A model generated the notes under the pieces. The model was not told where the DNA came from, did not search any database, and saw only the letters and a program-made list of their open reading frames with translations. Both the position numbers and the translations under genes were made by a program. From Candidatus Peregrinibacteria bacterium Greene1014_49 (lineage in GTDB: Bacteria > Patescibacteriota > Gracilibacteria > Peribacterales > Peribacteraceae): a stretch of 35,073 nt of DNA. The stretch is taken from assembly GCA_007376635.1 (NCBI GenBank), contig VMGQ01000010.1, positions 1 through 35,073 of the forward strand, written 5' to 3'. Of the stretch, positions 11,947 to 31,009 are shown piece after piece (the first letter of the stretch is position 1; each line of letters begins with the position of its first letter).

Positions 11947-12005
11947 CTGGATACAGATTCACAGATAAAAATTTTGAGCATTAAAAACCTTTTAATATAC
12001 ATTGT

Positions 12006-14495
12006 CTAGGATTCTGCAACAAAACTCACTAATTTCCCCTGCACATAAATCTCCTTCTTTATCCCTCCTGCTATGTACTTCTTTACATTCTCCTCCTCCT
12101 TTGCAGCAGCAATAATCTCCTCTTTTGAGGCTTTCGCATCCACCTCCATACTTGCCCGCAGTTTTCCATTCACCTGCACCACAATCGTCATTGTATCGCT
12201 TTTGAGGAGTTTCGGATCGAATGCCGGCCAGTGCTGATCAATAATAAAACCCGTACCGCCTGTCATCTCCCAAAGTTCCTCCGCCAAATGCGGTGCAAGT
12301 GGTGCGAGTAATTTTGCAATGGTTTGTCCAACATCGACAGGAATCGTCTCTTCTTTTTCCAGTTCATTGAGAAGAGACATGAGCGCGCTCAGTGCCGTAT
12401 TAAAATGCAACTGCGCAATATCATCTCCGACTTTTTTGATGGTGGCATGCAACTTCGACATCGTCGCAGCAGGCAATCCCTTTAATCCTTTATTTCCTTT
12501 ATCTCCTTTATTCCCTTTCTCCAACTTCTCTTCAAATAACCGAAAAAGCCTAAACACAAACCGATCAATCCCCTTGATCCCTGCATCATTCCAATCCCCT
12601 CCGTCGGTATAGGGACCGGTGAACATCAGATACATCCGGAAGACATCGCTGCCGTGTCTGTCCACAAACGCATCCGGAGAAACCACGTTCCCGCGACTTT
12701 TACTCATCTTCGCTCCCTTATGCGTAATCGTCCCCTGATGAACAACTTTTTTGAACGGCTCTTCGATTGATACAAAGCCAAAATCCTTAAGTGCCATCAT
12801 GACAAAGCGTGCATAGATGAGATGCATACACGCATGTTCTGCTCCCCCAACATAGCAATCCGCGGGCATCCAGGTCTTTTCCATGTGCGGATCCACCAAA
12901 CTTTCCGCTTTCATCTTCTTGCTTTCCATTTTCATTCCATGTCCTTCTGATTGCAGATACATCAAATAATAAAAGCTACTGCACACAAATGTATCCATCG
13001 TATCGAACTCCGGCGTCCAGCCTTTGCCGAAAATCTTCTCGGTGCGCTCGCGGAATTCTTTGGAATAATACAGAGGCGATTTTCCGGTCGGCTTGAACTC
13101 GACATCGGTCGGAAGAAGCCACGGAAGATGCTCCTCAGGAACCGGATGGGGATTACCTTCCGGATCGTACACAATCGGAATCGGTGCGCCCCAGTAGCGC
13201 TGGCGCGAGACGAGCCAGTCGCGAAGCCGGAAGTGCACAGTGCGCGTACCAAATCCTTCCTCCTCGATGTAGTCGATAATTTCATTGCGTGCGTGATGCC
13301 AGGTTTTGCCGGCAAGTTCAGGCGGATCAATGAGAATACCATCGGGCGCTTTGCAATATGCCACTTCAAAGTTCTCTACTTTGGCTCGGAGCTCTGCATC
13401 GGGCGGAACCATCGCGAGCTTCAAGGGGATGCCATACTTCTTTGCAAACGCGAAATCACGCTCGTCATGGGCGGAGCAGTTCACGATTCCTGTTCCATAA
13501 TCCGCAACGACGTACGATGCAATCCAGATCGGGAGATCGCCGGTGCCGAAGGGATTTTCGATGTAGCGACCGGTGAAAATGCCCTCCATATCCGTTTGAA
13601 TATTGAACCGGTTGCCCGCTTTCTTCTTTCGAATGTATTCCACAAATTCCTGCACAGGTTTTTCATGCGACGTTCCTTGAATCAACTTCTCCACAAGGGA
13701 ATGCTCGGGAGCGATCACCGTAAAGGTTTGCGCAAGAAACGTCTGCGGAACCGTATCGAAGACTTCCACTTCGATGTTCAGGTCTTTGATCTTCTCTTTG
13801 AACTTCACACCCTCGCTGCGCCCGATCCAATTCCTCTGCATCGTCTTCGTTTTTTCAGGCCAATCGAGTCCATCAAGATTCTTCAAGAGTTTTTCCGCGT
13901 ACTGCGTGATCTTCCAGAACCATTGCGTCAGAGGCTTTTGCACAACCGTAGTTCCGCAGCGCTCGCAGGTGCCGTCTTGCGCTTGTTCATTGGCAAGTAC
14001 CGTCTGACAGCTGGGACAGAAATTTACGTTCGCTTCTTTGTGGTAACAAAGCTTGTGACTATACATCTGCAAAAACAGCCACTGCGTCCAGCGGTAATAC
14101 TCCGGGGTAGAGGTATTCACCATCCTGCTCCAATCGAACATGCACCCCATGCGCTTGAGCTGGAGGATCATGGTATCGACATTTTTCCTGGTCGATGCAT
14201 CAGGATGCACGCCGGTCTTCACCGCATGGTTTTCCGCGGGGAGCCCAAACGCATCAAATCCCATCGGCTCAAAAACATCTTTCCCATGCATGCGCATGAA
14301 GCGGTAGTAGCTATCTGCGGGGGCGTAGCTGTACCAATGCCCGATGTGTAATCTATCCCCGCTCGGGTACGGAAACATCATCATTCCATAATACGGATCT
14401 TTGGCTTTCTTTAAATCTGTCTTGTACACGCCGGCGTCCTCCCAGCGCTTTTGCCATTTGGATTCAATCGTAGAGGGGTCGTAGGAGCGGGGCAT
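12006..14495 (-). CDS. leuS: leucine--tRNA ligase (bacterial type, with CP1 editing domain)
   Basis: HIGH PYPSGDRLHIGHWYSY. KMSKS GAKMSKSRGN. CP1 YGTGIVNCSAHDERDFAFAKKYGIP. LRDWLVSRQRYWGAPIPIV. I chose ATG 14495 (MPRSYDPSTIESKWQKRW); the track start at 14513 is a TTG. Confidence 0.95.
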   Translation of the reverse strand: MPRSYDPSTIESKWQKRWEDAGVYKTDLKKAKDPYYGMMMFPYPSGDRLHIGHWYSYAPADSYYRFMRMHGKDVFEPMGFDAFGLPAENHAVKTGVHPDASTRKNVDTMILQLKRMGCMFDWSRMVNTSTPEYYRWTQWLFLQMYSHKLCYHKEANVNFCPSCQTVLANEQAQDGTCERCGTTVVQKPLTQWFWKITQYAEKLLKNLDGLDWPEKTKTMQRNWIGRSEGVKFKEKIKDLNIEVEVFDTVPQTFLAQTFTVIAPEHSLVEKLIQGTSHEKPVQEFVEYIRKKKAGNRFNIQTDMEGIFTGRYIENPFGTGDLPIWIASYVVADYGTGIVNCSAHDERDFAFAKKYGIPLKLAMVPPDAELRAKVENFEVAYCKAPDGILIDPPELAGKTWHHARNEIIDYIEEEGFGTRTVHFRLRDWLVSRQRYWGAPIPIVYDPEGNPHPVPEEHLPWLLPTDVEFKPTGKSPLYYSKEFRERTEKIFGKGWTPEFDTMDTFVCSSFYYLMYLQSEGHGMKMESKKMKAESLVDPHMEKTWMPADCYVGGAEHACMHLIYARFVMMALKDFGFVSIEEPFKKVVHQGTITHKGAKMSKSRGNVVSPDAFVDRHGSDVFRMYLMFTGPYTDGGDWNDAGIKGIDRFVFRLFRLFEEKLEKGNKGDKGNKGLKGLPAATMSKLHATIKKVGDDIAQLHFNTALSALMSLLNELEKEETIPVDVGQTIAKLLAPLAPHLAEELWEMTGGTGFIIDQHWPAFDPKLLKSDTMTIVVQVNGKLRASMEVDAKASKEEIIAAAKEEENVKKYIAGGIKKEIYVQGKLVSFVAES

Positions 14496-18169: not shown

Positions 18170-20767
18170 TTATCGCACAATCCCAATCCGATCCTCTATT
18201 TCCTGATCGACAAACACCTTCTTTCTTCCATATTTCATTCTGCTGTATTCCTTAATGAGCGCCGCAAGCTTTTCGTTGCGCGTGGATTCGTCGTAGATGG
18301 TGGCAAGCGAGAAAGCACGTGAGGTAACGTTATTGATATTGAGCTTGCAGTAGCAGTTGAAGTTCGGGATACCGATAGCATCTTGATCGGAGATAGCTGG
18401 TGCCATTTCCTTTGCCATGTATTCAGCGTCTTCCGCACCGATCTTGAAACTCATGATCGTACCGACGTTACCGAAGACTGCATCGCGCATCTTCGTACCT
18501 GCCTGGCCGTAGGCTTCGGTTTTCCCGACGAGCTGCCCGATGTACTGGTGCGCCATGATGAGCGCTAGCTCGTACTTGCGCGCCTCAGAGAGGATCGTGG
18601 CAAAAGCGTCCGTAACGAAATTTTGGAACTCGTCGACGTAGAGGTAGAAACGACGACGCTGCGTACGGGGGATATCTGCCCTGCTCATGGCAGCCATATT
18701 CACTTTATTCACAAAGATCAATCCGAGGAGCTGTGCGTTTACGTCGCCGATCTTTCCCTTGCTGAGGTTTACCAGAAGTACCTTGCCTGTGTCCATAATT
18801 TCGCGGATGTTGAAGGCGGACTTCGGCTGGCCGATAATATTACGCATCGTGGTATTCGTGATGAAAGGACCGAACTTCGCACTGAAGTATGGAATCATCT
18901 CCTCCTTTTCGCGCTGCCCTGTCTTCGCGATTTCATGCTCCCAGAAACTCCGCACGACGACATTTTTGCACTTGGCTACTTTATATTTCTGGAATTCCTC
19001 GTCGACGAAGAGGCGCGGCACGTCGATGAGGGTCGCACCTTCCTCCTCATCGTCCATTAATGTCAGACAGCCGTTGCGGAAGTAGTGCTGGATGCGCGGA
19101 CCGAAGATTTCATTGCCAAAGAGTTTGAGAAAGATTTCCATGGCATCGAGCGATGCGCGATCCTTCTCTTCCATGGTTTTTGCCTCAAGAAGATTTAAAC
19201 CCATTGGACGTTGGCCATCAGAGGGATCGAAGACAATGATGTCTTTCGCGCGCTCCTTCGGGGTATGAGCGAGAGCATCCTCGATAAGATCCCCGTGGGG
19301 ATCCACGATGCAGAGCCCTTCACCATTGGCGATATCTTGTCGCGACATCCAGCTGATAAGCGAAGATTTTCCACAACCAGATTTTCCGATAATGTACTGA
19401 TGTCGCGTTCGATCGCCACCGCGAAAACGGATGGGCGTCTCGACTGCTCGGTAGCGGTTATAGCCCAGGAGAACGCCCTCCGTTGGAGCGTCCGGCGGAG
19501 GAGGAAGTACGCGGTAGGTAATCCACTGAATGATAGGGATCTTGTTATAACGGCTGTCGGGGAAATGGTAGAGTCCGGCAAGCTCCTTCTCCGTCATCAT
19601 GCAGTCTTTGTGCAGGAAACAGTTTATGCGATTTTTCCAAAGCCAGTGGATAATTGGCCCATTGATTGCATGCGGAAGAAAATCTATAAACATGCGCTTA
19701 TTCACGAGCACATTTCCATAGAGATCCTTGAATGCATTGAAAGCGACTTGGATATTATTCGTGAGCTCGTTGGCGCGCTGCGCACTCTTTGAAGAAGTCA
19801 TGATACGGATGGAGGCATGGTAGAAACTCATTCCCCCTTTTTCTGCCATGCGCTTGTACAGCTCCTCTTCGGGCTGAACCATACGCACAAAAGAGTCACC
19901 GCCTTTTGCACCGGGAGCATTGGTGCCTGTCGCAAAATCCGCAAAGCCGCTCAAGAGGAAACCGATGATCGGAACATGGGCAAAGAGCCCCTCTTTCTTC
20001 CCTTTGAATCCGGAACTCGCGGCACGTTTGGTGACCTTGTTCCACTTCTTGCGAATTGCGGGAGTGAGCACGATCTGTATGGATGCGACTTCGTCACGTT
20101 CCATTTTGGAAAGGACGTTGGCAAGACCATTCAAGGGATCATCCTGCATGAGCTCGTACGTACGAAGCGGAAAACAAAATTTCTTCTGAAATTTCATATA
20201 ATACCCGACAAGGCTGTAGCCTTTGGGCTTCACTTCAGGGGTCTTTTCGAGAGTGACTTCTGCGTCGGAATAGAACGCCGTGATCTGCTTTTCCACGATA
20301 GAGACGAGCCTCGGATGCGTAACAACATAAAAACTAAGCAACCCTTTATCCACATACATTTCAAAACTAATACGGATGTCTCTCGTGATCCAAAAATAGA
20401 ATGTCTGCCAGAAATCGAGATTGCGCACTTCCCAGAGCGCACGATAGAGCTGCTCCATCACGGCGACTTTTTCTTTGAAATCCTTCTCGGTGCGCTTCTC
20501 CTGGTCGAGCTTCGTATCGGATCGCGGCAGTATCACCTTCATGGAAACAAGATTGCGGCTCTGGTACCACGCGAAGGTAAACCGTGCCTCGAACTTGATG
20601 AAAGCCCAGGCAAAATAGAGCGAAACCAGAAATAGCGTCTTATCCATCGGATCTGTGCGATACCACTCCCAGATGTCGATCCAGATATGGGCATTCACGA
20701 TCGTCGTAGAGAGGACAACAACAATCCAGAGAACCGGCCAGAAGAGGATGCGGAGGAGTACGAGCAC
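18170..20767 (-). CDS. type IV secretion coupling-protein-like (VirD4/TraD/TrwB-type) P-loop ATPase with a large N-terminal membrane-anchored domain
   Basis: Two N-terminal TM segments (LVLLRILFWPVLWIVVVLSTTIV and LFLVSLYFAWAFI). Walker A IIGKSGCGKSS followed by CIVDPHGDL. Walker B FYLYVDEFQNF. ARKYELALIMAHQYIGQL. GTG start at 20767. Assigning it to VirD4 rather than the VirB4/HerA branch would need an HMM search. Confidence 0.75.
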   Translation of the reverse strand: MLVLLRILFWPVLWIVVVLSTTIVNAHIWIDIWEWYRTDPMDKTLFLVSLYFAWAFIKFEARFTFAWYQSRNLVSMKVILPRSDTKLDQEKRTEKDFKEKVAVMEQLYRALWEVRNLDFWQTFYFWITRDIRISFEMYVDKGLLSFYVVTHPRLVSIVEKQITAFYSDAEVTLEKTPEVKPKGYSLVGYYMKFQKKFCFPLRTYELMQDDPLNGLANVLSKMERDEVASIQIVLTPAIRKKWNKVTKRAASSGFKGKKEGLFAHVPIIGFLLSGFADFATGTNAPGAKGGDSFVRMVQPEEELYKRMAEKGGMSFYHASIRIMTSSKSAQRANELTNNIQVAFNAFKDLYGNVLVNKRMFIDFLPHAINGPIIHWLWKNRINCFLHKDCMMTEKELAGLYHFPDSRYNKIPIIQWITYRVLPPPPDAPTEGVLLGYNRYRAVETPIRFRGGDRTRHQYIIGKSGCGKSSLISWMSRQDIANGEGLCIVDPHGDLIEDALAHTPKERAKDIIVFDPSDGQRPMGLNLLEAKTMEEKDRASLDAMEIFLKLFGNEIFGPRIQHYFRNGCLTLMDDEEEGATLIDVPRLFVDEEFQKYKVAKCKNVVVRSFWEHEIAKTGQREKEEMIPYFSAKFGPFITNTTMRNIIGQPKSAFNIREIMDTGKVLLVNLSKGKIGDVNAQLLGLIFVNKVNMAAMSRADIPRTQRRRFYLYVDEFQNFVTDAFATILSEARKYELALIMAHQYIGQLVGKTEAYGQAGTKMRDAVFGNVGTIMSFKIGAEDAEYMAKEMAPAISDQDAIGIPNFNCYCKLNINNVTSRAFSLATIYDESTRNEKLAALIKEYSRMKYGRKKVFVDQEIEDRIGIVR

Positions 20768-20852: not shown

Positions 20853-21974
20853 TTATGCATTTTGCTGTTGGCACTCAATGGCCTCCATCCGCATCTGCCT
20901 CTTGATCCCCTGCGCCGTCGCAAACATAAACACGTATTCCCCCGGCTCTGCAGGGTTAAACGTGAATTGTTCCTCCGGGGATACCCAATCCTGCATCCGA
21001 ACGAAGTGACCATCGGGATAGGTAACACCCCGCACAACAAACCACCGGTTTGCTTTTAAGACAAGCAGAGATCCCGCAGCGAGGCGGTGGGGAATGCCGC
21101 GCTGAAATCGGACGTCCCTGGTGAGACGCTGCTGGAATCTTGGAACTTCCGTTATTTCTTGGCTTACAGAAAGTGAGCATCCGGAGACAAGCGTCGCATC
21201 TCCAAGACGCTGGAAGCGTGCGCGGATAACGCCCTTGGATCGCTCGGCAATCGATGTGAATGCCGCGACGCTCAAATCCATGTCGCGTCCGTCCACGTAC
21301 GGACCGCGATCATTGATCCGCACAGTGACGCTTTTTTCATTCTCCACGTTGGTCACTTTCACGAGAGTATTCTGGGGAAAACTCCGATGTGCCGCCGTGA
21401 TCGCATACATATCAAACGTCTCGCCGAATGCCGTTCCCTGGCCATGGAACTGCTCACCGTACAGACTAACTTCGTGGACTTCCTCTGACAATTTTTGATC
21501 GAGGGAGCGCATAAGAGCGAGAAGTTCCTCAGATGAAACGATCTCCGACAAGGTTGACCCAGTAGCGGAAGATCGCGATCTTCCGCTATCAGACATGAGG
21601 GAATATCGCTCCATCAATGAGGACAGATGCTCGCGCTGCATTTCCGGAAGCTCCGCGATATTGCGCGTGCGATAGAGCCAGAGGAGTGCATCTTCGAGTG
21701 TGAGAGAATCATCCGGGTAAAATGCTCCATCACCCGGACTCTTCGAAGAAGAATCTCCATCAAGTAAACCCCTGTTCTTCGCGTAGGTGATTTCAAGGAA
21801 TCCCCTGTCCCCTTCGGGTACATCGGAAAACGGCTGTTCGCGCGTTTCGTATGCAGCACGGTTGATGCTCTGCCAGAGCAGAAGAAATCCGTCGCGACGA
21901 GTGATGCCTTCCGCAGCAAAGGCTTGCGGAATACCGAGAATCAGCATGGTAAAAATCGCAAGGAGATTCTTCAC
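20853..21974 (-). CDS. secreted RlpA-like double-psi beta-barrel (DPBB) lytic transglycosylase-family protein
   Basis: Signal peptide MKNLLAIFTMLILGIPQAFA. SLH-like N-terminal segment (ITRRDGFLLLWQSI...FSDVPEGD). DPBB core YGEQFHGQGTAFGETFDMYAITAAHRSFPQNTLVKVTNVENEKSVTVRINDRGPYVDGRDMDLS. GTG start. Confidence 0.85.
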   Translation of the reverse strand: MKNLLAIFTMLILGIPQAFAAEGITRRDGFLLLWQSINRAAYETREQPFSDVPEGDRGFLEITYAKNRGLLDGDSSSKSPGDGAFYPDDSLTLEDALLWLYRTRNIAELPEMQREHLSSLMERYSLMSDSGRSRSSATGSTLSEIVSSEELLALMRSLDQKLSEEVHEVSLYGEQFHGQGTAFGETFDMYAITAAHRSFPQNTLVKVTNVENEKSVTVRINDRGPYVDGRDMDLSVAAFTSIAERSKGVIRARFQRLGDATLVSGCSLSVSQEITEVPRFQQRLTRDVRFQRGIPHRLAAGSLLVLKANRWFVVRGVTYPDGHFVRMQDWVSPEEQFTFNPAEPGEYVFMFATAQGIKRQMRMEAIECQQQNA

Positions 21975-22012: not shown

Positions 22013-23383
22013 CTAGAGAGCTTTCCATCCTTCCGCACGCACAATCCGATATGCCTTCGTTCTCTCTTCTCTCCGCAAACTCTGCAATGTTTCCGGACCT
22101 ACCGATCCCGCTCCATCATCAGTTTCTGTAGCGACGATTCCCTGTGCCACTTGATAATCGAAGACTGCCTCTCGGGTGAGAGAACCGAAGTTGCCATTGA
22201 TCTTGTTCTCGGGGAAATAACCACGCTCCGTAAGCAGATGCTGGAGAAGACGAACGTAGGGACCGGTGTGTCCTTCCGTGAGAAACATATCGAGTGATTC
22301 GCCGCGTTCTTGCATGAGTTTTTCCACTGCATGCACCGTCATGTATTTATCTGCACGAACGGCTACGAGTCGGCGGTTCCATTCGGTTTGCATCGCACGC
22401 TTCGTAAGAGGTCCTATACGCCCTGCACCCGGATCGATCGCCGTTCCCACAAGTCCCTTCTCCTGTTGGAAGCGAAGAATGGCATCATGCAGAGTAAGAG
22501 AATACAAGCCATCCGTTCGTCCTTCGTAATACCCAAGAAACCGGAGAATGCGCTGCGCTTGAGAAACTGCATTCTCGTTACTTTCCATATCGACAATGCC
22601 ATCAATAGGGAGGATGGCATCGCTACGCCGTGATGCCGCAAGAAGAAATGCTGCCGTATGTTCCGTGAGTCGATCCGTAGATTCATGAAGAACAAAATCA
22701 CTGACAAATCTCTTCAGAGCCTCCTCCGTATCCGGACCAAAGTATCCCGAAGATGCGCGATCAAAATACCCGGCACTCCGCAGATGATCTTGAAGGATTG
22801 CTGCAGAGAGATTGCGATCGCCTGCTTTCGGCGTGAGCGCGAGCAAATTTTCAGACTCAACCCCAAAGGGCGTGAGCCTCTGAAAAGGGGCTGGAAGCCT
22901 TGCGAGGTCAAAATCATTTTGGGGCTGTCTCGATCCGAGCGGATACACCGTTCCGCGGATATGCTGCACGCCGAAGGCAAGAGCACGTGCAAGTCCTTCT
23001 TCACCGTGCCCCACCCAAACATCGAGCCTGTGCGCATGGGAATGGAGAACCTGGATCGCTCCACCACGGTCATGAACGGTAAGTGTACCCAGCCCCGGCA
23101 AGACGACATCTGTGCCGAATGCATAGGATGGAGGAGCCGCGAGCATACCCGGATACACCGCCGTTCCATCGGCCGCCGTGTGTCCTTCGCCATTCAAGAT
23201 TTTATCGGCTTCGTAGCCTCCTCGAACGTAGCAACATTGTCCCGGCAGCGGCGAGTAGTAAGCTGTCAGAATGAACTCTTGTTCGTAGGGAGCTGTGGGG
23301 TCGATACCTACGACATTGGTCGGAGCGATGATCGCAACGAGAGCAATCACTGCGCGAACACGGAGAGGAATTTTGTTTTTCAT
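22013..23383 (-). CDS. secreted 3D-domain (MltA/YabE-like) protein with three peptidoglycan-binding (PG_binding_1-like) repeats
   Basis: Signal/TM segment VRAVIALVAIIAPTNV. 3D domain ILTAYYSPLPGQ...LNGEGHTAADGTAVYPGMLAAPPSYAFGTDVVLPGLGTLTVHDRGGAI. PG-binding repeats LQDHLRSAGYF...GYFGPDTEEALKRF, AQRILRFLGYYEGRTDGLYSLTLHDAILRFQ, LQHLLTERGYF...GNFGSLTREAVFDYQ. Confidence 0.85.
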   Translation of the reverse strand: MKNKIPLRVRAVIALVAIIAPTNVVGIDPTAPYEQEFILTAYYSPLPGQCCYVRGGYEADKILNGEGHTAADGTAVYPGMLAAPPSYAFGTDVVLPGLGTLTVHDRGGAIQVLHSHAHRLDVWVGHGEEGLARALAFGVQHIRGTVYPLGSRQPQNDFDLARLPAPFQRLTPFGVESENLLALTPKAGDRNLSAAILQDHLRSAGYFDRASSGYFGPDTEEALKRFVSDFVLHESTDRLTEHTAAFLLAASRRSDAILPIDGIVDMESNENAVSQAQRILRFLGYYEGRTDGLYSLTLHDAILRFQQEKGLVGTAIDPGAGRIGPLTKRAMQTEWNRRLVAVRADKYMTVHAVEKLMQERGESLDMFLTEGHTGPYVRLLQHLLTERGYFPENKINGNFGSLTREAVFDYQVAQGIVATETDDGAGSVGPETLQSLRREERTKAYRIVRAEGWKAL

Positions 23384-23433: not shown

Positions 23434-24429
23434 TTACTCAACAATAATCTCCTCCTCCACCCGCATCCCGAACCTCCCCGGAAAGTACACCCCTGGCTCT
23501 ATCGTAATAATTTCCCCTTTCAATAATTTCCGATCCGGGGCTTTTTTCGAAAGCGTCGACCCTTCGTGGATTTCTAAGCCGACTCCATGCCCGAGTGCGT
23601 GACAGAAAAATTCCTCGTAGCCATAGCTCTTCAATACTTCGCGTGCTATGGAATCCAAATCTCGCACCGAGACACCCGGTTTGAGCTTGGCTATCGCCTC
23701 ATCCTTGGCTTCACATATTGCGGTAAATACTCTGCTCTGAATCGGCGTCGGTTTCCCTGTGAAAAATACTGCACTCTGATCGGCGCAATATCCCCTGTAC
23801 TTCGCTCCACAGTCGATCTGGACGATGTGACCCTGTTTGAGCATACGACCCGTAGGTTTATGATGCGGACTGCTCGTATGGGTACCAAATGCAACAATAG
23901 GATCGAAGGAAAGCCCTTCCGCTCCCAGCTCCCTCGCCCATACCTGTAGCTGCCATGCGAGATCAATCTCACGAATAGGACACTTCAGAAGAGAAGGCAC
24001 GCGACGAATCATTTCGCGCGTAATGCGCTGTGCACGACGAAATTTCGCGAGTTCTTCAGGATCCTTACTTCTCCGAAACTCGGCAATGAGGCCTGAAGTA
24101 TGAACAAATTTTGTGTTCTTAAATTTTGCCTTCCACCTATGGAATCTTTCGATAGAGAGTCCTTCATCTTCGATGCCACATATACGTACACGTTTCATTG
24201 CTGCATCGATGGCGGCACCGTCTTTGACCGAGATCCCCCGATAAACGCTGCGGGAAGCCACTTCGATGTAACGACCATCGGTGAAAAGCGTCATGGTCTT
24301 AGGTTCTAGTAGGAGCAAAGCAGAACTCATGTCTAATCCTGTAAGAAAGCGGATATTGACAAGATTACTGACGAGAAATGCAGGGGTGCCGGATGCATCA
24401 AGTATTGCCGATGGACGTTTGGGGCGCAT
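23434..24429 (-). CDS. M24-family Xaa-Pro aminopeptidase/dipeptidase
   Basis: Metal-ligand context IVQIDCGAKYRGYCADQS, HALGHGVGLEIHE, ITIEPGVY, MRVEEEI. Start is uncertain: ATG 24429 (TATACT 6 nt upstream), ATG 24444, or TTG 24459. Confidence 0.85.
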   Translation of the reverse strand: MRPKRPSAILDASGTPAFLVSNLVNIRFLTGLDMSSALLLLEPKTMTLFTDGRYIEVASRSVYRGISVKDGAAIDAAMKRVRICGIEDEGLSIERFHRWKAKFKNTKFVHTSGLIAEFRRSKDPEELAKFRRAQRITREMIRRVPSLLKCPIREIDLAWQLQVWARELGAEGLSFDPIVAFGTHTSSPHHKPTGRMLKQGHIVQIDCGAKYRGYCADQSAVFFTGKPTPIQSRVFTAICEAKDEAIAKLKPGVSVRDLDSIAREVLKSYGYEEFFCHALGHGVGLEIHEGSTLSKKAPDRKLLKGEIITIEPGVYFPGRFGMRVEEEIIVE

Positions 24430-24463
24430 GGGGGAAGTATACATTGTCTCAAACCCCAAAATC

Positions 24464-24472
24464 TGCTATCAT
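24464..24472 (+). promoter_or_regulatory. extended -10 TGcTATCAT 7 nt upstream of the poly-pilin ATG
   Basis: TGCTATCAT tgtggga ATG(24480). It is divergent from the aminopeptidase -10 (plus 24436-24441). Confidence 0.4.
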
Positions 24473-24479
24473 TGTGGGA

Positions 24480-26405
24480 ATGCTCCGAATATTCCTCGCT
24501 ACCCATCGGATCCGGCGTTCCACCCGTGCAATCAGGAAGATTGCCTCTACGTGCGCGATTCTCTTTGGTCTCGGTATCCTGACACTCGCGCAGGCTTCGG
24601 TCTACTCAGGACCTGGCATTGACTCCGGAGTCACCACAGCACAAACGACCATCCCCGGTGTATCGGCAACGGCTCCATCGGGCGTCATTAACAGTATCAT
24701 CACCCAGGCGATTTCGTATTCGAACATCCTCGCCTTCGCAGTCATTGTGATCGCCGGGTTCTACCTGATTCTTGGACTCGGCAACGAGACATCAAAAGAA
24801 ACAGCGAGGAAGATTATTCTCTACACCGGTGTCGGACTCGTAATCATCAATCTTGCAGCTGGCATCCGCGATTTCCTCGAGGGCGTCGGCCCGGGAACCA
24901 GCGCATCTGGAGGCGCAACTGCGCTTGATGCAGCCATCAACACCATCATCGGTGTCTTCACGAGTTACACAGGTCTGCTCGCATTTGGCGTCATTTCGAT
25001 CGCCGCGTTCTACCTGATCCTCGGACTGGGAAATGAAAGTTCGAAAGGAACAGCGAGGAGCATCATTCTCTATACCGGCATCGGCCTCGTGATCATGAGT
25101 GTTACCGCCGCTATCAGAAATTTCCTACAAGGTATCGCTACGGGAACCAGTACATCCGGAGGCTCGACGGCTCTTGACGTGATCATCAACGGAATCATCG
25201 GTGTCTTCACGAGTTACACAGGTCTCCTCGCTTTCGCAGTCATTGTGATCGCCGGGTTCTACCTCATTCTGGGACTGGGCAATGAAAGTTCGAAAGGAAC
25301 AGCGAGGAACATCGTTCTCTACACCGGCATCGGCCTCGTGATCATCAGTCTTGCACCTGCCATCCGCAATTTCTTCTTCAGCATCAATGCGGGAACAAGC
25401 GGATTCGGAGGCTCAACGAGTCTCAATTTGGCTATTAATGCCATCATCAATACGTTTAAGAGTTACGTCGGGATTCTTGCTCTTGCGGTCATCATCATTG
25501 CTGGTTTCTACCTGATCCTTGGACTCGGTAACGAAAGCTCAAAAGGAACAGCGAGGAACATCATCCTCTATACCGGCATCGGCCTCATCATCATCAATCT
25601 CGCAGTCGCCATCACTGCATTCCTCGGAGGCATCGTCACGAGTGGTGCCGGCACCAGTACCAGCGGAGCTGGAGGCACAACAGGTCTTGACGTGGCAATC
25701 GACACTATCATCGGCGTCCTCAAGAGTTACGTCGGAATTCTTGCGCTCGCGATGATCGTGATTGCCGGATTCTACCTGATCCTGGGACTCGGTAATGAAA
25801 GTTCGAAAGGAACAGCAAGGAGCATCATTATTTATACTGGCGTCGGGCTTATTATTATTACGCTCGGAGTCGGCATTCGCAATTTCCTTGGAGGTATCGT
25901 GACGAATGCTGCCGGCGGCAGTACCAGCGGATTCGGTGGCTTGACGGGTCTGAACGTGGCTATTAATGCCATCATCGATGTTTTCACAAGTTATGTGGGT
26001 CTGCTTGCGGTCGCAGTCATTGTCATCGCCGGATTCTACCTGATCTTGGGACTCGGCAATGAAAGTTCAAAAGGAACAGCGAAGAATATCATTCTCTACA
26101 CAGCTGTCGGCATCATTGTCATCATCCTTGCCAATGTGATTGTCAGCTTCTTCCAGAGTATCCCATCGGGAGTAGATGCCAGTGGCCTCTATGGAACGAT
26201 ACGCACGATTATTGTCTACATCACGACGTTCGCTGCACTCCTTGCGGTAGCCGCAATAGTCATTGGGGGGATCATGCTCATCACAAGCATTGGCGACGAA
26301 GGGCGCAAAGACACAGCAAAGAAAGTCATTCTCTATGCCATCATCGGCCTCTTTGTGATCGCACTCTCTTCAGCATTCGTGCACTTCGTCTTCGACATCT
26401 TCTAA
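24480..26405 (+). CDS. polytopic membrane protein: signal peptide plus seven tandem VirB2/TrbC-type (T4SS-pilin-like) two-helix modules
   Basis: Signal peptide MLRIFLATHRIRRSTRAIRKIASTCAILFGLGILTLAQA. It is followed by seven units of the form (amphipathic lead)-TM-GLGNESSKGTAR-TM-(G/S/T linker). The last unit, LLAVAAIVIGGIMLITSIGDEGRKDTAKKVILYAIIGLFVIAL, looks like a canonical CPR-type T4SS pilin. Confidence 0.85.
   Translation: MLRIFLATHRIRRSTRAIRKIASTCAILFGLGILTLAQASVYSGPGIDSGVTTAQTTIPGVSATAPSGVINSIITQAISYSNILAFAVIVIAGFYLILGLGNETSKETARKIILYTGVGLVIINLAAGIRDFLEGVGPGTSASGGATALDAAINTIIGVFTSYTGLLAFGVISIAAFYLILGLGNESSKGTARSIILYTGIGLVIMSVTAAIRNFLQGIATGTSTSGGSTALDVIINGIIGVFTSYTGLLAFAVIVIAGFYLILGLGNESSKGTARNIVLYTGIGLVIISLAPAIRNFFFSINAGTSGFGGSTSLNLAINAIINTFKSYVGILALAVIIIAGFYLILGLGNESSKGTARNIILYTGIGLIIINLAVAITAFLGGIVTSGAGTSTSGAGGTTGLDVAIDTIIGVLKSYVGILALAMIVIAGFYLILGLGNESSKGTARSIIIYTGVGLIIITLGVGIRNFLGGIVTNAAGGSTSGFGGLTGLNVAINAIIDVFTSYVGLLAVAVIVIAGFYLILGLGNESSKGTAKNIILYTAVGIIVIILANVIVSFFQSIPSGVDASGLYGTIRTIIVYITTFAALLAVAAIVIGGIMLITSIGDEGRKDTAKKVILYAIIGLFVIALSSAFVHFVFDIF
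24684..26402 (+). repeat. in-frame tandem coding repeats, 7 units (216-264 bp)
   Basis: Unit starts are 24684, 24924, 25173, 25422, 25686, 25950 and 26187. Exact shared runs occur, for example ggtgtcttcacgagttacacaggtct at 24951 and 25200, and aatgaaagttcgaaaggaacagcgagga at 25031 and 25281. The units are not identical and the linkers differ in length. Confidence 0.9.
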
Positions 26406-26414
26406 AGACTTTCC

Positions 26415-28826
26415 ATGTCCGCGCGCTCCCCATTCCTCCGGCAGCTCACGGTCTCGGCACTGCTCTTTGTTGGAATCGTCGCAGGCAAGCAAATGGTGGA
26501 TGCTCAAAGTACTCCCGCAACGGAAAAGATCTCACTTCCTCTGGGATCCGTCTTTGAAGTCCTCGCACAGGAGGGTGCACCGCAAACGCAGTACGCCTGG
26601 GTACTTTCATATGAACGCACCTTTCTCCAGGCGGGTAGAGGCAGATCTCTGAGGACGCGCTTTGCACAACCGGGTCGTTACCTCCTGAGCGCTGAGGTCG
26701 CTCCGCCTGGAGGCAAAAGTATCCGTCAATCGTTTGCCATCACTGTTGTGTCCGGCACGGAAGACCTTTCAGGATCGGGAACGGCTCTCGAGACTGTTCC
26801 AGGGAACCTCAATGGTGCCATTGTGGTTACCGAAGAACAGCGACTTGTCTCTATCCGCCCGACTCCCGGAATGCTCGCAGATATCACGCTCGATGCAGAT
26901 CTTTCTGTGGATGAAGATGCTGATGGGAATGCCGAAAACGATAGGAGTGCAGAGGGAACATATTTGATCTCGGATGGCCTTCCTCTCTTTCTCTGGATCA
27001 CGAGCGATCTTCCTGCGTCATTCGCGGTTTCCGGAACAAACGAAGACGGGTCACCGCTCCTCCGTCAGTTTACCGTGAGTCTTGCTTCTGCCCCTGTTGC
27101 CCCCCCTGCGCCCGTACCCGAGTCGCAGCCTCTTACCGGTGGGATAGAGGTAACGGAAGAGGAAGACGGCAGCCTGCGTTTCAGCATCCTTGACCGACCC
27201 CCGATGCAAACCCCAGTGGTACCCATTTGGGATTTCGGGGATGGAACGCAGAGCATGCTCATGGAACCTGTGCATCGTTTCACGCAATCCGGAACCTACG
27301 TCGTTCGTGCGCGTCTCAAGGATCTTCGTAATGGCATAGATATCCGCGATCTCGCCGAGGAGGTGACAGTGCAATCTCCAGAGATCTCTGCACCCGTACC
27401 GACAACCAAAAAGCCTCCAGCAGATGAAATTCCTTCAAAGGGATCCTCTCGCCTCGCGATGATCTTGAAGATCCTCATGGGACTGATAATGGTTGCTATG
27501 ACCGGTGGTGTCATCACCGTGGTGACTCTCAAACTCCGAAAAGGAAAATCGCTCGCGGAGCGCTTGGAGGCGGCGGACAAGAAAATGGCGATACCCAAGC
27601 CTGAGGCCGGATCGACAACTGCACCGATGAGCCTTCCTGATAGCCCTGAGGTGATCGACGCAGAAGCGGAGAAGACTGCCCCTCCTGCAGCGACACTTCC
27701 CGCTCCCGCAGGCGCCGGACCTGTTCCCGATTGGCTCCAGAATGTACCAAAAACGCCGAAGGCAACTCCTTCGACCATGCCTGTGGCTCCCCCTGCTCCT
27801 GCAACACCATCCGCACCCGTTGCACCTGCGACTCCTATTCCCGTACGTACAAAGGAGTCAGAACCACTCCTGTCAGAAAACTCCATGCCCGATTGGCTGA
27901 CACCGAATGCAGAAAAAAAGGATGCACAGTCAGTCATACCTGCTCCAGCCAAGGCGACTCCATCCCCTGTACCTGCGGCGGTGCCACAGCCTGCTACACC
28001 ACAAAAACTTGAAACCCCATCTCCTGCGCCAGTCGCCACAGCAATACCGGTTCTTATTTCTCCAAAGGCAGAAACTTCAACTCCTTCCGCGGGACGACCT
28101 CTTCCTGCATGGCTTCAGCCCAACACGGGCACTTCGATGCCTCCTCCTACTCCAGCTCCTGCAACATCTCCAAACCTCGCTCCTGCACCAGTAAAAGCAG
28201 AGCCAAAATCACCCGTTGTTGCTCCTCCCAATACATCACCACAACCACAAATCATTGTAAAAAAGAACAACATTCCTCCTCCAGAGCCAAAACCTCAAAT
28301 AGATCCGATATCCGAGGAGAAGGCACAGGAAGTTTCCGGAGCTCTCCCTGCGTGGTTGCAGCCGCAGACCACACCCAAAGAGGTGCCCCCCGCGCCGATG
28401 CTCGAGACATCGAAGCCCGCTCCTACTCCTGTGACCCTGGTACAACCTAAAAATCCTCCTGTTCCCGCTCCGGTGAAAACTCCGGAGCCGAAACCGGAGT
28501 TACAAACAAACACCACCACTCCCGCAACCTCCGTACCCCCTCCCCCTCCTGCTGCCCCCAAAGTCCTCAGCGAAAAGGAACGCGAGCGCCGTCGCCTGAA
28601 GAGACAACGATATCGCCAAAATAAGCAGCACAGAGAAGCTGCTGCGGGGACTCCTTCAGCAGATCCTTCAACGTTACAAACTCCGAAACCTGCGTCCATT
28701 GCTCTCTCTCCGGACGAAGCACCTGTCGCATTCATTCGCGCAGAGAGTATTGAAAATAATCCCCCCTTCGCTCCTGAGGGAGCTACGGCGGGCAAGCCAA
28801 ACCCAACACCGGATATCCCTCAGTAG
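26415..28826 (+). CDS. single-pass membrane protein: signal peptide, PKD/Ig-like ectodomain, TM, roughly 430-aa Pro-rich tail with repeated P[DA]WL motifs and a terminal basic patch
   Basis: Signal segment LTVSALLFVGIVAGKQMVDAQS. PKD signature VVPIWDFGDGTQSM...FTQSGTYVVRARL. TM LAMILKILMGLIMVAMTGGVITVVTL followed by KLRKGK. Tail is rich in P/A/T. Starts 9 nt after the poly-pilin stop. Confidence 0.8.
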   Translation: MSARSPFLRQLTVSALLFVGIVAGKQMVDAQSTPATEKISLPLGSVFEVLAQEGAPQTQYAWVLSYERTFLQAGRGRSLRTRFAQPGRYLLSAEVAPPGGKSIRQSFAITVVSGTEDLSGSGTALETVPGNLNGAIVVTEEQRLVSIRPTPGMLADITLDADLSVDEDADGNAENDRSAEGTYLISDGLPLFLWITSDLPASFAVSGTNEDGSPLLRQFTVSLASAPVAPPAPVPESQPLTGGIEVTEEEDGSLRFSILDRPPMQTPVVPIWDFGDGTQSMLMEPVHRFTQSGTYVVRARLKDLRNGIDIRDLAEEVTVQSPEISAPVPTTKKPPADEIPSKGSSRLAMILKILMGLIMVAMTGGVITVVTLKLRKGKSLAERLEAADKKMAIPKPEAGSTTAPMSLPDSPEVIDAEAEKTAPPAATLPAPAGAGPVPDWLQNVPKTPKATPSTMPVAPPAPATPSAPVAPATPIPVRTKESEPLLSENSMPDWLTPNAEKKDAQSVIPAPAKATPSPVPAAVPQPATPQKLETPSPAPVATAIPVLISPKAETSTPSAGRPLPAWLQPNTGTSMPPPTPAPATSPNLAPAPVKAEPKSPVVAPPNTSPQPQIIVKKNNIPPPEPKPQIDPISEEKAQEVSGALPAWLQPQTTPKEVPPAPMLETSKPAPTPVTLVQPKNPPVPAPVKTPEPKPELQTNTTTPATSVPPPPPAAPKVLSEKERERRRLKRQRYRQNKQHREAAAGTPSADPSTLQTPKPASIALSPDEAPVAFIRAESIENNPPFAPEGATAGKPNPTPDIPQ

Positions 28827-28858
28827 ACTTCTCCTGGAGAGTTCGATAGCGTTCCTCC

Positions 28859-30364
28859 ATGCTATCACTTTCGCGTTCCGGATTTCTGCTGCGCGCACTC
28901 GTTACCTACACCGGTGCCTGCGTTCTCGTGATTGAAATACTGGCAACCCGCATCCTCGCGCCGCATTTCGGCAGTTCCCTCTACACCTTAAGCAGCGTGC
29001 TCGGAGTAACGCTCGGCGCACTCAGTATCGGCTACTACGCGGGAGGAATCCTCGCAGATCGCAATCCCTCCTGGTACACGCTTGGAATTCTTCTTACGTT
29101 CGCAGGCGTTACAACGCTCCTCATCTGGCCTCTGTCCATAGTCCTTCTCCCGCTCCTCGGTTCTGCATTCGCTTCCGGAGCGGGTCCACTCATGGGATCG
29201 ACTCTGCTCTTCCTTATTCCCTGCGGATTTCTTGGTACATTTTCTCCCTATGCTGTGGGACTTGAGCAGCGCTTTGCCCCTGCGCTCAGTGCAGGTCGCG
29301 CCGCCGGCAATATCTTCTTTTGGTCCACACTCGGGAGTATCGCCGGGAGCATCGCTGCGGGATTTCTCCTGATTCCGCTGCTCGGGATCCACATACTCAT
29401 CGGCAACATCGGCACATCGCTCCTCGTTATTGGCATCGTGATCGTGTTGCTCAATGGAAAAGTGAAGGCACGGGGAAAGGGTTTTATCATTTCTTCCATG
29501 TTCATCGGAGCATGTTCTCTGGCTATTCCCTACACGAGTAAGGCGGTCTTTGCGGTGGACGGCGTGTACCAGCGCATGATCGTGCAAGATACACAGATAG
29601 AAGACCGAAAGATCCGCATTCTCTGGCAGGATCGCAATGCGTCTTCGGGCATCAACCTCGAAAACGACGATCACGCCTTCCAGTACACTCGGATTGTTGC
29701 TGCTGCATGGAAAGGAAAGGAGCCGCCCAAGCGTTCCCTGGTCATTGGTGCCGGAGCCTTCGTCATTCCACGCGTCATTGCGGCAGCCTCGCCGGAATCA
29801 AACGTGGACGTTATCGATATCGAGCCGGGATTGGAAGATATTGCGAAGCGTTTCTTTCGTTACATACCGAGTGACCGTATCCACTCCATCATCGCAGACG
29901 GCAGAACATTTCTCCGAGACAGCGGTCAATATGATCTGATCATCGGAGACGCCTACCAGGCGACCCACTCCATTCCCGCGCATCTCACGACCCAGGAATT
30001 CTTTGCACTTGTTAAAGATCATCTGACCGAGAATGGCATCTTCATCGGGAACTTCATAGGATCCGTGGATACGTCCAGAAACTCCTATCTCCCGGCGGTC
30101 ATGCGGACATTGCTGAGCGTATTTCCTGCCGGCCGTTTCTACGCGATGAATGATTCGAGGAGTGTAGCGCAACAGAATGTCATGTTCATCGCCTGTAAAA
30201 GTGACCCATGCATTGATCCTTGTTCGTCCGCGATGAAAAGCAGTCCGGATCCGATTCTCTCGACGCTCTGTGAAAGAGATGTGCCTGTCTATGCCGCCGA
30301 TCTTGAGGATCACCCCATTCTCACGGACGACTATGCGCCGGTGGAGTGGTTGACGGTGCAATGA
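28859..30364 (+). CDS. fused polytopic-membrane / spermidine-synthase-like (SAM-dependent aminopropyl- or methyltransferase fold) protein
   Basis: N-terminal roughly 210 aa hold multiple TM helices (LVIEILATRILAPHFGSSLYT...). C-terminal Rossmann motifs SLVIGAGAFVIP, VDVIDIEPG, DLIIGDAY. This is the typical 'fused MFS/spermidine synthase' architecture. Confidence 0.85.
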   Translation: MLSLSRSGFLLRALVTYTGACVLVIEILATRILAPHFGSSLYTLSSVLGVTLGALSIGYYAGGILADRNPSWYTLGILLTFAGVTTLLIWPLSIVLLPLLGSAFASGAGPLMGSTLLFLIPCGFLGTFSPYAVGLEQRFAPALSAGRAAGNIFFWSTLGSIAGSIAAGFLLIPLLGIHILIGNIGTSLLVIGIVIVLLNGKVKARGKGFIISSMFIGACSLAIPYTSKAVFAVDGVYQRMIVQDTQIEDRKIRILWQDRNASSGINLENDDHAFQYTRIVAAAWKGKEPPKRSLVIGAGAFVIPRVIAAASPESNVDVIDIEPGLEDIAKRFFRYIPSDRIHSIIADGRTFLRDSGQYDLIIGDAYQATHSIPAHLTTQEFFALVKDHLTENGIFIGNFIGSVDTSRNSYLPAVMRTLLSVFPAGRFYAMNDSRSVAQQNVMFIACKSDPCIDPCSSAMKSSPDPILSTLCERDVPVYAADLEDHPILTDDYAPVEWLTVQ

Positions 30365-30931: not shown

Positions 30932-31009
30932 TGGGGCGAGCGAAGGGGATTGAACCCTCGACCTTCTGGGCCACAGCCAGACGCTCTAACCAACTGAGCT
31001 ACGCCCGCC
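30932..31009 (-). tRNA. tRNA-His (anticodon GTG) with genomically encoded G-1 and 3' CCA
   Basis: Minus strand: G(-1) GCGGGCG TA GCTC AGTTGGTTA GAGC G TCTGG CTGTGGC CCAGA AGGTC GAGGG TTCAATC CCCTT CGCTCGC C CCA. All four stems pair, with one G-T in the acceptor stem and one in the T stem. G-1 lies opposite C73, the His identity element. Confidence 0.93.

What the first reader, a model, noticed from the sequence alone, without database searches (positions are those of the whole stretch)
24480..26405. Seven VirB2/TrbC-like (T4SS-pilin-like) two-helix modules fused into one polypeptide: a 'poly-pilin'
After a cleavable-looking signal peptide (…LTLAQA|SVY), the protein consists of seven consecutive units of about 72-88 aa. 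Each unit has an amphipathic lead (LDAAINTIIGVFTSY), TM1 (LLAFxVIVIAGFYLILGLG), a short basic loop (NESSKGTAR), TM2 (IILYTGIGLVIINLA) and a Gly/Ser/Thr linker (GTSTSGGSTA). The seventh, most divergent unit (AIVIGGIMLITSIGDEGRKDTAKKVILYAIIGLFVIAL) has the layout of the stand-alone 100-150-aa T4SS pilins seen in CPR and Gram-positive genomes. The positive-inside rule would put every basic loop in the cytoplasm and every G/S/T linker outside, so the seven units are topologically compatible (14 TM helices). The repeats are not an assembly stutter: units differ in sequence and linker length. Many differences are synonymous; for example, R2 ctgatcctcggactgggaaat and R3 ctcattctgggactgggcaat both encode LILGLGN. 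That pattern implies selection on each copy. VirB2-type pilins are normally monomeric precursors, so a covalent heptamer has three possible readings: a polyprotein cleaved in the linkers, a pre-assembled filament or pore segment, or a new polytopic membrane scaffold.
Basis: partly seen in the sequence, partly recalled or inferred. Interest (0 to 1): 0.85.

Follow-up and report, generated by a model that had tools for sequence, protein, structure and literature searches.

The report
Seven secretion-pilus subunits fused together
One gene of an uncultured, ultra-small bacterium (Peribacteria, candidate phyla radiation) encodes seven copies of the small two-helix subunit that normally builds type IV secretion pili, joined head to tail in a single membrane protein; this fused form recurs in related genomes but I found no published description of it.

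Summary
The ORF at 24480-26405 (+) encodes 641 aa: one Sec-type signal peptide followed by seven 73-88-aa helix-loop-helix modules. The whole protein hits Pfam T4SS_pilin (PF18895) at E=6.6e-33, and every module hits it when scanned alone. It is not an assembly artefact: modules are 50-80% identical in DNA, share at most 32 identical bases, show dN/dS of 0.14-0.51, and the gene is base-identical in three independent assemblies. In 29 Peribacteria species the same locus (VirD4-like ATPase, two cell-wall enzymes, M24 peptidase | pilin slot | PKD membrane protein) holds one of two things. Some carry one to three separate single-module pilin genes, each with its own signal peptide. Others carry one fused gene of 2, 3, 4, 5, 7 or 10 modules. 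Fused forms of 6-7 modules also sit inside pilin gene arrays of other CPR lineages. So this is a recurrent fused variant of the known Patescibacteria VirB2-like pilin arrays. My best inference is that it works uncleaved, as a covalently linked block of pilin subunits. Cleavage into monomers is not excluded. The literature I searched describes arrays of separate pilin genes but no fused pilins.

The parts
24480..26405 (+). Poly-pilin coding sequence, 641 aa, stop codon included
   Evidence: ORF list. Identical 641-aa gene call on 5 public contigs. PF18895 at E=6.6e-33.
24480..24596 (+). Sec-type signal peptide (aa 1-39). The n-region has 7 K/R, the h-region is IASTCAILFGLGILTL, and the predicted cleavage is AQA|S.
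   Evidence: Sequence and hydropathy. The same position and A-x-A motif occur in relatives. Cleavage itself is inferred, not shown.
24600..24629 (+). Conserved motif VYSGPGIDSG at the mature N-terminus, present once per protein
   Evidence: The motif [VF][YF]xGxG[ILV]xxG lies about 20 aa before the module of stand-alone 'gene A' pilins and before the first module of fused proteins. It never precedes an internal module.
24669..24917 (+). Module 1 (83 aa, linker included)
   Evidence: PF18895 E=3.9e-5
24918..25166 (+). Module 2 (83 aa)
   Evidence: PF18895 E=0.026, the weakest of the seven
25167..25415 (+). Module 3 (83 aa)
   Evidence: PF18895 E=3.2e-6
25416..25679 (+). Module 4 (88 aa)
   Evidence: PF18895 E=2.7e-5
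25680..25943 (+). Module 5 (88 aa)
   Evidence: PF18895 E=1.2e-3
25944..26183 (+). Module 6 (80 aa). This penultimate module is closest to the penultimate module of the 3-module relatives.
   Evidence: (PF18895 E=2.5e-9)
26184..26402 (+). Module 7 (73 aa). This divergent terminal module is orthologous to the last module of the other fused proteins.
   Evidence: (PF18895 E=8e-9). NCBIfam NF045849 pilin-like conjugal transfer protein, E=6.8e-9, below its cut-off.
26415..28826 (+). Conserved downstream partner, 803 aa: signal peptide, PKD domain, one TM helix, and a 428-aa tail that is 23% proline with four [PA][DA]WL motifs
   Evidence: Pfam PKD and sequence analysis. It lies immediately downstream of the pilin slot in most related loci, and its start overlaps the pilin stop in L006 and L007.
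18170..20767 (-). VirD4/TrwB-like type IV coupling ATPase, 865 aa, part of the conserved locus
   Evidence: Pfam TrwB_AAD_bind, T4SS-DNA_transf and TraG-D_C. NCBIfam VirD4-like hits, all below cut-off. Present at the same position in at least 20 related loci.
20853..21974 (-). RlpA-like (DPBB) lytic transglycosylase, part of the conserved locus
   Evidence: Pfam DPBB_1, TIGR00413 rlpA at 109 bits, synteny
22013..23383 (-). Protein with three peptidoglycan-binding repeats, part of the conserved locus
   Evidence: Pfam PG_binding_1, three stretches, synteny
23434..24459 (-). M24 (Xaa-Pro) peptidase, transcribed divergently from the pilin gene. It is a conserved neighbour and probably housekeeping.
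   Evidence: Pfam, synteny. It also flanks the slot in species with separate pilin genes, so it is not tied to the fused state.

Best explanation
The gene encodes a Sec-exported membrane protein of 14 transmembrane helices, made of seven VirB2-like pilin hairpins joined head to tail. It occupies the pilin slot of a chromosomal locus conserved in Peribacteria: VirD4-like coupling ATPase, two cell-wall enzymes, pilin(s), PKD surface protein. It arose from the separate-gene pilin arrays typical of Patescibacteria. The route was loss of the internal signal peptides and N-terminal extensions, followed by lineage-specific tandem duplication of internal modules. All basic loops would face the cytoplasm and all linkers the outside.

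My inference on function is that the chain is not cut. It would work as a covalently linked block of pilin subunits: held in the membrane, then fed hairpin by hairpin into the T4SS-associated pilus or wall-spanning conduit. [quoted passage not shown]

Shown: architecture, family, topology logic, authenticity, evolutionary series. Inferred: export, absence of cleavage, incorporation into a filament.
For: Identity. PF18895 hits the whole protein at E=6.6e-33 and every module alone. All 42 related modules hit PF18895 and 29 of 42 hit TrbC/VirB2. The nearest single-module relatives are 78-132 aa, and some sources name them VirB2 pilin. Module 7 resembles a Mycoplasma ICE pilin-like conjugal transfer protein.

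Locus. The same gene order occurs in 29 species-level loci, with the slot holding either separate pilins or a fused gene of 2-10 modules.

Authenticity.

Topology. There is one signal peptide plus 14 helices, and K/R residues concentrate in the intra-module loops. The AF2 two-module model has pLDDT 80 and shows two hairpins of roughly 32-36-residue helices joined by a 7-residue loop.

Against release as ordinary monomers. The N-terminal motif conserved in stand-alone pilins occurs once per fused protein and is missing from internal modules. No cleavage motif is shared by all junctions. First, penultimate and last modules keep positional orthology.

Geometric plausibility. In solved conjugative pili the positively charged loop faces the lumen, layers rise 12.1 A, and N- and C-termini are close enough to be peptide-bonded in cyclic pilins (PMC12037004).

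Precedent. Methanopyrus kandleri has 13 fused hairpins in its ATPase rotor subunit (PMC3639240).
Against: There is no protein-level evidence of any kind. Whether Patescibacteria VirB2-like proteins form pili at all is unproven. No VirB4 or VirB6 gene lies in the window. The module profile finds no solved pilin by sequence, and the two-module model finds none by fold. The full-length AF2 model is unreliable at pLDDT 47. The linkers are rich in small residues, so signal-peptidase-like sites after each second helix cannot be excluded. In other lineages fused and stand-alone pilins sit side by side, which fits either a special role for the fused form or simple redundancy.
Confidence: 0.5

Rival explanations
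1. Polyprotein precursor. The chain inserts in the membrane and is cut in each external linker, for example by signal peptidase I using each second helix as an internal signal sequence, or by another exported protease. This would release six similar pilins and one divergent pilin in a fixed 6:1 ratio from one transcript.
For: The same locus in sister species encodes separate pilins, so the fused form could be a different way of making the same products. Each second helix runs in-to-out and is followed by small residues such as SGGA|T, SGGS|T and AGA|G. The terminal modules end about where the linkers begin. Module number varies freely from 2 to 10, as expected if only dosage matters.
Against: No cleavage motif is conserved across junctions or lineages. 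Internal modules lack the N-terminal segment conserved in every stand-alone 'gene A' pilin, so the released products would be truncated relative to normal pilins. The 6-14-residue linkers begin about ten residues beyond the hydrophobic core of the second helix, farther than the usual 5-7 residues to a signal-peptidase site (the spacing rule is from my own knowledge). No dedicated protease gene accompanies the fused state; the adjacent M24 peptidase has no signal peptide and also flanks unfused loci.
Confidence: 0.25
2. Static polytopic membrane scaffold or channel. The 14-helix protein stays in the cytoplasmic membrane as a platform or pore for the T4SS or for the PKD partner protein, having lost the ability to polymerise.
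For: The gene is tightly coupled to a single-pass PKD protein with a long cytoplasmic tail. VirB6 homologues were reported as absent or unrecognisable in the class Gracilibacteria (PMC12102498). Placing Peribacteria in that class is from my own knowledge, but if correct, another polytopic protein could fill that role. AF2 packs adjacent hairpins with moderate confidence.
Against: The modules retain the full pilin signature, including the conserved loop, and remain under purifying selection like stand-alone pilins. A copy number that varies from 2 to 10 among close relatives is unusual for a defined channel architecture.
Confidence: 0.2
3. Assembly artefact, or a decaying pseudogene made of collapsed or expanded repeats.
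For: Tandem repeats in metagenome assemblies are error-prone in general.
Against: Modules share at most 32 identical bases. The gene is base-identical in three independent assemblies built with k=119 and k=139. The 1.9-kb frame is intact, with dN/dS of 0.14-0.51. Orthologues with 2-10 modules exist in many genomes.
Confidence: 0.02

Closest known systems
Patescibacteria VirB2-like pilins and their gene arrays (Pfam PF18895; Quinonero-Coronel et al. 2025, PMC12102498; the six-gene pilin cluster of Southlakia epibionticum as cited in PMC12857230)
   Same: Same Pfam family for every module. Same helix-loop-helix layout with a short basic loop, and Sec signal peptide. Chromosomal, relaxase-free T4SS context. 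Sister species carry separate pilin genes at the identical locus.
   Different: The modules are fused in one reading frame with a single signal peptide. Internal modules lack the mature N-terminal extension. The reported arrays are 2-11 separate genes, and I found no report of fused ones.
Conjugative pilins VirB2, TrbC, TraA and TrhA of diderm T4SS
   Same: Two long hydrophobic helices, a positively charged connecting loop, and termini on the opposite side from the loop. The Pfam TrbC model hits many related modules. Cyclic TrhA and TrbC show that pilin termini can carry a peptide bond.
   Different: Those are single-hairpin subunits. In cyclic pilins the bond joins the two ends of one subunit; here it joins successive subunits. 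No solved pilin is recovered by sequence or fold search. The host is a monoderm.
Fused-hairpin rotor subunits of A/V-type ATPases (13 hairpins in Methanopyrus kandleri; PMC3639240)
   Same: Tandem fusion of a two-helix membrane hairpin that normally oligomerises as separate subunits. Copy number varies between lineages.
   Different: Unrelated family: there is no ATP-synt_C hit, no membrane-embedded carboxylate, and no ATPase operon. This is an analogy only.
Mbov_0395-family pilin-like conjugal transfer protein of Mycoplasma ICEs (NCBIfam NF045849)
   Same: Module 7 aligns over 68 of the model's 80 positions at E=6.8e-9. It belongs to a monoderm conjugation system, which fits the proposed monoderm ancestry of the Patescibacteria T4SS.
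   Different: The score of 35.3 bits is below the 40-bit cut-off. That family is single-module.

Membership tests
Pfam PF18895 T4SS_pilin | Profile score above the gathering threshold of 26.6 bits | tested here: met
   The whole protein scores 113.1 bits, E=6.6e-33. Alone, modules 3, 6 and 7 exceed the threshold (27.6, 37.5, 35.9 bits). Modules 1, 2, 4 and 5 score 15-24.6 bits; PF18895 is the top hit for all of them except module 2, where MatE scores marginally better.
Pfam PF18895 T4SS_pilin | Two hydrophobic helices joined by a short charged loop, preceded by a Sec signal peptide | tested here: met
   Hydropathy and charge analysis. AF2 secondary structure. There is one signal peptide for all seven modules.
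Pfam PF18895 T4SS_pilin | Small single-module protein of about 100-130 aa | tested here: not met
   This protein is 641 aa with 7 modules. The best 120 profile hits are all 78-132 aa.
Pfam PF04956 TrbC/VirB2 pilin | Profile match to bona fide conjugative pilins | tested here: inconclusive
   None of the window's seven modules reaches E<=1. Of 42 related modules, 29 do, best 6.8e-6. A 'faint' precomputed hit is on record for the fused relatives P0002 and P0005.
Pfam PF04956 TrbC/VirB2 pilin | Similarity to solved pilus subunits | tested here: not met
   The profile search against PDB sequences gives only noise, E>=0.85. Foldseek with the two-module model gives no hit below E=0.3.
Pfam PF04956 TrbC/VirB2 pilin | Encoded with T4SS machinery (VirB4, VirB6, VirD4) | tested here: inconclusive
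   A VirD4-like ATPase and two cell-wall enzymes lie 4-6 kb upstream and are syntenic in at least 20 loci. No VirB4 or VirB6 was recognised in the window.
Pfam PF04956 TrbC/VirB2 pilin | Polymerises into a pilus, usually with phospholipid | not testable with these tools
   This needs purification or cryo-EM/cryo-ET.
Patescibacteria pilin gene array (PMC12102498) | Two or more separate pilin genes, in tandem or nearly so | tested here: not met
   The window has one ORF. The orthologous slot in L020-L027 and L030-L037 holds 2-3 separate genes. Fused genes sit inside such arrays in L038 and L040.
Cleaved polyprotein | A recognisable, conserved cleavage motif at every junction | tested here: inconclusive
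   Junctions are rich in small residues but share no single motif within or between lineages. No signal-peptidase predictor was available.
ATPase proteolipid (c/K subunit) fused hairpins | ATP-synt_C profile match and a membrane-embedded carboxylate in the second helix | tested here: not met
   No such Pfam hit. By direct reading, neither helix of any module contains D or E.

The most novel reading that the evidence does not exclude
The fused chain is never cut and enters the T4SS filament or wall-spanning tube as a pre-linked strand. Each chain would supply n successive layers of one helical strand, about 12 A per module, so about 85 A for seven. Module number (2-10) would then act as a genetically encoded ruler, or a unit of assembly, for a conduit matched to the envelope of a monoderm epibiont. 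That would be a mode of T4SS pilus assembly from polytopic precursors with no known precedent.
Probability: 0.15. Interest if true: 0.85.

Novelty: new variant of a known kind. Interest (0 to 1): 0.62.

Why it matters
[quoted passage not shown] What the pilins build in a monoderm cell is unknown. Current models of T4SS pilus assembly assume free two-helix subunits that are pulled one at a time from the membrane. A natural series runs from separate genes to covalent chains of 2, 3, 4, 5, 7 and 10 subunits at the same locus. This provides a test. If the chains are used uncut, subunit termini must be adjacent in the assembled structure, and the machinery must be able to handle polytopic substrates. 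If they are cut, there is an unrecognised pilin-processing step. The result also matters for annotation, because surveys that count pilin genes will undercount pilin modules.

Tried and rejected
1. The full-length search of the 5.8-billion-protein set returned only 5 proteins, a limit of the word index. The exhaustive representative search was needed.

2. The full-length AF2 model has pLDDT 47 and is unusable beyond secondary structure.

3. The module profile against PDB sequences gave no pilin. Foldseek with the two-module model gave only generic helical bundles, E>=0.3. The fold is too simple for this test.

4. I tried to assign fused modules to stand-alone gene types A, B and C by identity. 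The differences are too small to decide. Only the separate clade of last modules is clear.

5. Cluster look-ups for taxon names of distant fused proteins were mostly unnamed. One is Candidatus Andersenbacteria.

6. I considered the adjacent M24 peptidase as a processing enzyme and rejected it. It has no signal peptide and is equally present next to unfused pilins.

7. I rejected the ATPase proteolipid reading: no profile hit and no carboxylate.

8. The promoter and terminator scan around the gene is not above the shuffled background.

9. The share of the family that is multi-module could not be estimated. Both ranked lists are biased: 146 of the top 150 are multi-module with a two-module query, and all of the best 120 are single-module with a one-module profile.
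Full report
**1. What is in the sequence**

An ORF runs from 24378 to 26405 on the + strand. Public gene calls, and the position of the divergent upstream gene, place the start at ATG 24480, giving 641 aa.

The protein begins with a typical Sec signal peptide. The n-region has 7 K/R, a hydrophobic core follows, and the predicted cleavage site is AQA|S. Seven modules follow, anchored on LGLGNE (six times) and SIGDEG (once). Their lengths, linkers included, are 83, 83, 83, 88, 88, 80 and 73 aa. Tandem Repeats Finder sees the same array at periods of 249 and 264 nt.

A hydropathy scan finds the signal peptide plus 14 hydrophobic helices. The intra-module loops are 9-12 aa with 2 K/R each. The inter-module segments are 19-35 aa with 0-1 K/R. 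Because each module has two helices, all linkers must lie on one side of the membrane. The charge bias puts the loops in the cytoplasm and the linkers outside.

AF2 on the full chain is unreliable (pLDDT 47) but predicts 15 helices. AF2 on modules 6-7, with 24 aligned two-module rows, reaches pLDDT 80. It shows two hairpins of roughly 32-36-residue helices, with 4-residue intra-hairpin loops and a 7-residue connection between the hairpins.

**2. It is real, not a stutter**

- Module pairs are 50-80% identical in DNA, with dN/dS of 0.14-0.51.
- No two modules share more than 32 identical bases, so assembly at k=119 or k=139 is unambiguous.
- The gene is base-identical on contigs from three separate ENA assemblies.

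**3. Family**

Pfam T4SS_pilin (PF18895) hits the whole protein at E=6.6e-33. It also hits each module on its own, at E=2.5e-9 to 0.026, and is the best-scoring family for six of the seven; in module 2 MatE scores marginally better.

In a set of 42 modules from this protein and its relatives, all 42 hit PF18895. Twenty-nine also hit TrbC/VirB2 (PF04956), best 6.8e-6. The window's own modules do not reach PF04956 at E<=1.

A profile of the modules finds 899 proteins at E<=1e-8. The best 120 are all single-module proteins of 78-132 aa. Several are named 'VirB2 component (pilin)', 'TrbC/VirB2 family protein' or 'pilin' by their sources. Module 7 also resembles the NCBIfam Mycoplasma ICE pilin-like conjugal transfer protein, at E=6.8e-9, just under the model's cut-off.

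There is no support from solved structures. The profile search against PDB sequences gives noise only, and Foldseek with the two-module model finds nothing below E=0.3.

**4. Genomic context and comparative series**

The window looks chromosomal and CPR-like. It carries LeuRS, EngA, sigma-70, DnaG, RsmB, YceG and an AddA-like helicase-nuclease.

Upstream of the pilin gene, on the opposite strand, lie:
- an M24 peptidase;
- a protein with three peptidoglycan-binding repeats;
- an RlpA-like lytic transglycosylase;
- a VirD4/TrwB-like coupling ATPase.

Nine bases downstream starts an 803-aa protein with a signal peptide, a PKD domain, one TM helix and a long proline-rich tail.

A scan of species-representative genomes returned 29 loci. 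Nearly all are labelled Candidatus Peribacteria or Peregrinibacteria, and they show the same gene order. The slot between the M24 peptidase and the PKD protein holds one of two arrangements.
- **Separate genes.** One to three single-module pilin genes, each with its own signal peptide (L020-L037).
- **One fused gene.** Two modules (L016, L017, L019), three (L010, L011, L013, L015), four (L012), five (L014, L018; also L007), seven (this window) or ten (L009).

Fused proteins have a single signal peptide. The conserved mature N-terminal motif [VF][YF]xGxG[ILV]xxG occurs once per protein. It precedes the first module of fused proteins and the only module of stand-alone 'gene A', and never precedes an internal module.

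Module trees show that the last modules of fused proteins form their own clade. First and penultimate modules are also positionally conserved between close relatives, while internal modules are lineage-specific duplicates. The closest relatives have flanking proteins 81-93% identical and carry three modules. The pilin itself evolves much faster, with orthologous modules 58-70% identical.

**5. Beyond Peribacteria**

An exhaustive search of 1.84 billion representative proteins with modules 6-7 gave 5465 hits at E<=1e-3. Of the top 150, 146 carry 2-10 modules. This ranking favours multi-module proteins.

Two distant examples lie inside arrays of five to seven stand-alone PF18895 genes. They have 7 modules (606 aa) and 6 modules (501 aa). 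The 6-module protein clusters at 90% identity with a Candidatus Andersenbacteria protein. The sources that name any of these proteins call them hypothetical or uncharacterised.

**6. Literature**

[quoted passage not shown] A 2025 review describes a cluster of six VirB2-like pilins in Southlakia (PMC12857230). Neither paper mentions fused pilins, and no other paper found by full-text search does. My search covers open-access papers and bioRxiv only.

**7. How it most likely works**

- **Shown:** the architecture, the family, that the gene is real, and the evolutionary series.
- **Inferred:** Sec export, the 14-TM topology with external linkers, and a role with the T4SS.

I favour use of the uncut chain, at roughly 0.5, for four reasons.
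- Internal modules lack the N-terminal segment that every stand-alone 'gene A' pilin conserves.
- No cleavage motif is shared by the junctions.
- Gene fusion of separately encoded proteins usually marks physical partners.
- In solved conjugative pili the charged loop faces the lumen, while N- and C-termini lie together and can even be peptide-bonded (cyclic TrhA; layers rise 12.1 A; PMC12037004). A short external linker between successive subunits is therefore geometrically plausible.

The fused 13-hairpin ATPase rotor of Methanopyrus kandleri is a precedent in an unrelated family (PMC3639240).

Two rivals remain. A polyprotein cut in the linkers (about 0.25) would give a fixed 6:1 ratio of two pilin types. 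A static membrane scaffold (about 0.2) would work with the PKD partner. An artefact is effectively excluded.

**8. Verdict**

The observation and the core interpretation are correct. The feature is a fused variant of a known kind (Patescibacteria VirB2-like pilins and their arrays). It is recurrent in public data but, as far as I could find, undescribed. Its interest lies in what it implies for pilin handling by T4SS and in the natural series of 1 to 10 modules. The mechanism needs protein-level data.

Noticed in passing
window 26415-28826 (+): The conserved downstream partner has a signal peptide, a PKD domain, one TM helix (aa 353-371) and a 428-aa tail. The tail is 23% proline, carries four spaced [PA][DA]WL motifs (aa 438, 492, 564, 645) and has a highly basic stretch near the C-terminus. 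Its start overlaps the pilin stop codon in L006 and L007. Its function is unknown.
   Followed up: partly
window 24444-24472 (+): A promoter-like site (TTGTCT, 17-nt spacer, TG-TATCAT) ends 7 nt before the ATG at 24480, so the mRNA could be leaderless or nearly so. The scan is not above the shuffled background.
   Followed up: no
L038 9005-14262 and L040 8321-12663: In other CPR lineages, 7- and 6-module fused pilins lie inside arrays of five to seven stand-alone PF18895 genes. One array member (L038 9005-9643, 212 aa) has a cysteine-rich N-terminal domain in front of its pilin module. L040 8321-8926 (201 aa) has two modules.
   Followed up: partly
L038 10001-11821; window 26150-26200: Many junctions carry a hydrophobic-Pro motif just after the second helix: SFDIPS, SFGIPT, YYDLPG and SFGFPT in L038; FFQSIPSG in the window at the junction of modules 6 and 7; FFQGLPTG in L013. 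It could be a helix cap or a processing site. Most other junctions in the window lack it.
   Followed up: no
L021 (JAIPIN010000032.1): A contig labelled Kiritimatiellales carries the complete Peribacteria-type locus (YceG, YbaB, VirD4, DPBB, PG-binding, M24, pilins, PKD). It is probably a mis-binned contig.
   Followed up: no
window 30932-31008 (-) and about 33894 to the window end (+): The only RNA gene in the window is a tRNA-His (GTG anticodon). A histidyl-tRNA synthetase gene starts about 3 kb away and runs off the window end (seen in L001 at 19416-20762).
   Followed up: no
window 28859-30364 (+): A 501-aa protein has a spermidine-synthase-like domain only at aa 281-397, behind a long N-terminal region. 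It is conserved immediately downstream of the PKD gene in several relatives (L010, L016).
   Followed up: no
window 12001-13000 and 28001-29000: Two 1-kb windows have strongly negative GC skew (-0.29). The second corresponds to the proline-rich (CCN) tail of the PKD protein. The first lies in the leucyl-tRNA synthetase gene on the minus strand.
   Followed up: no
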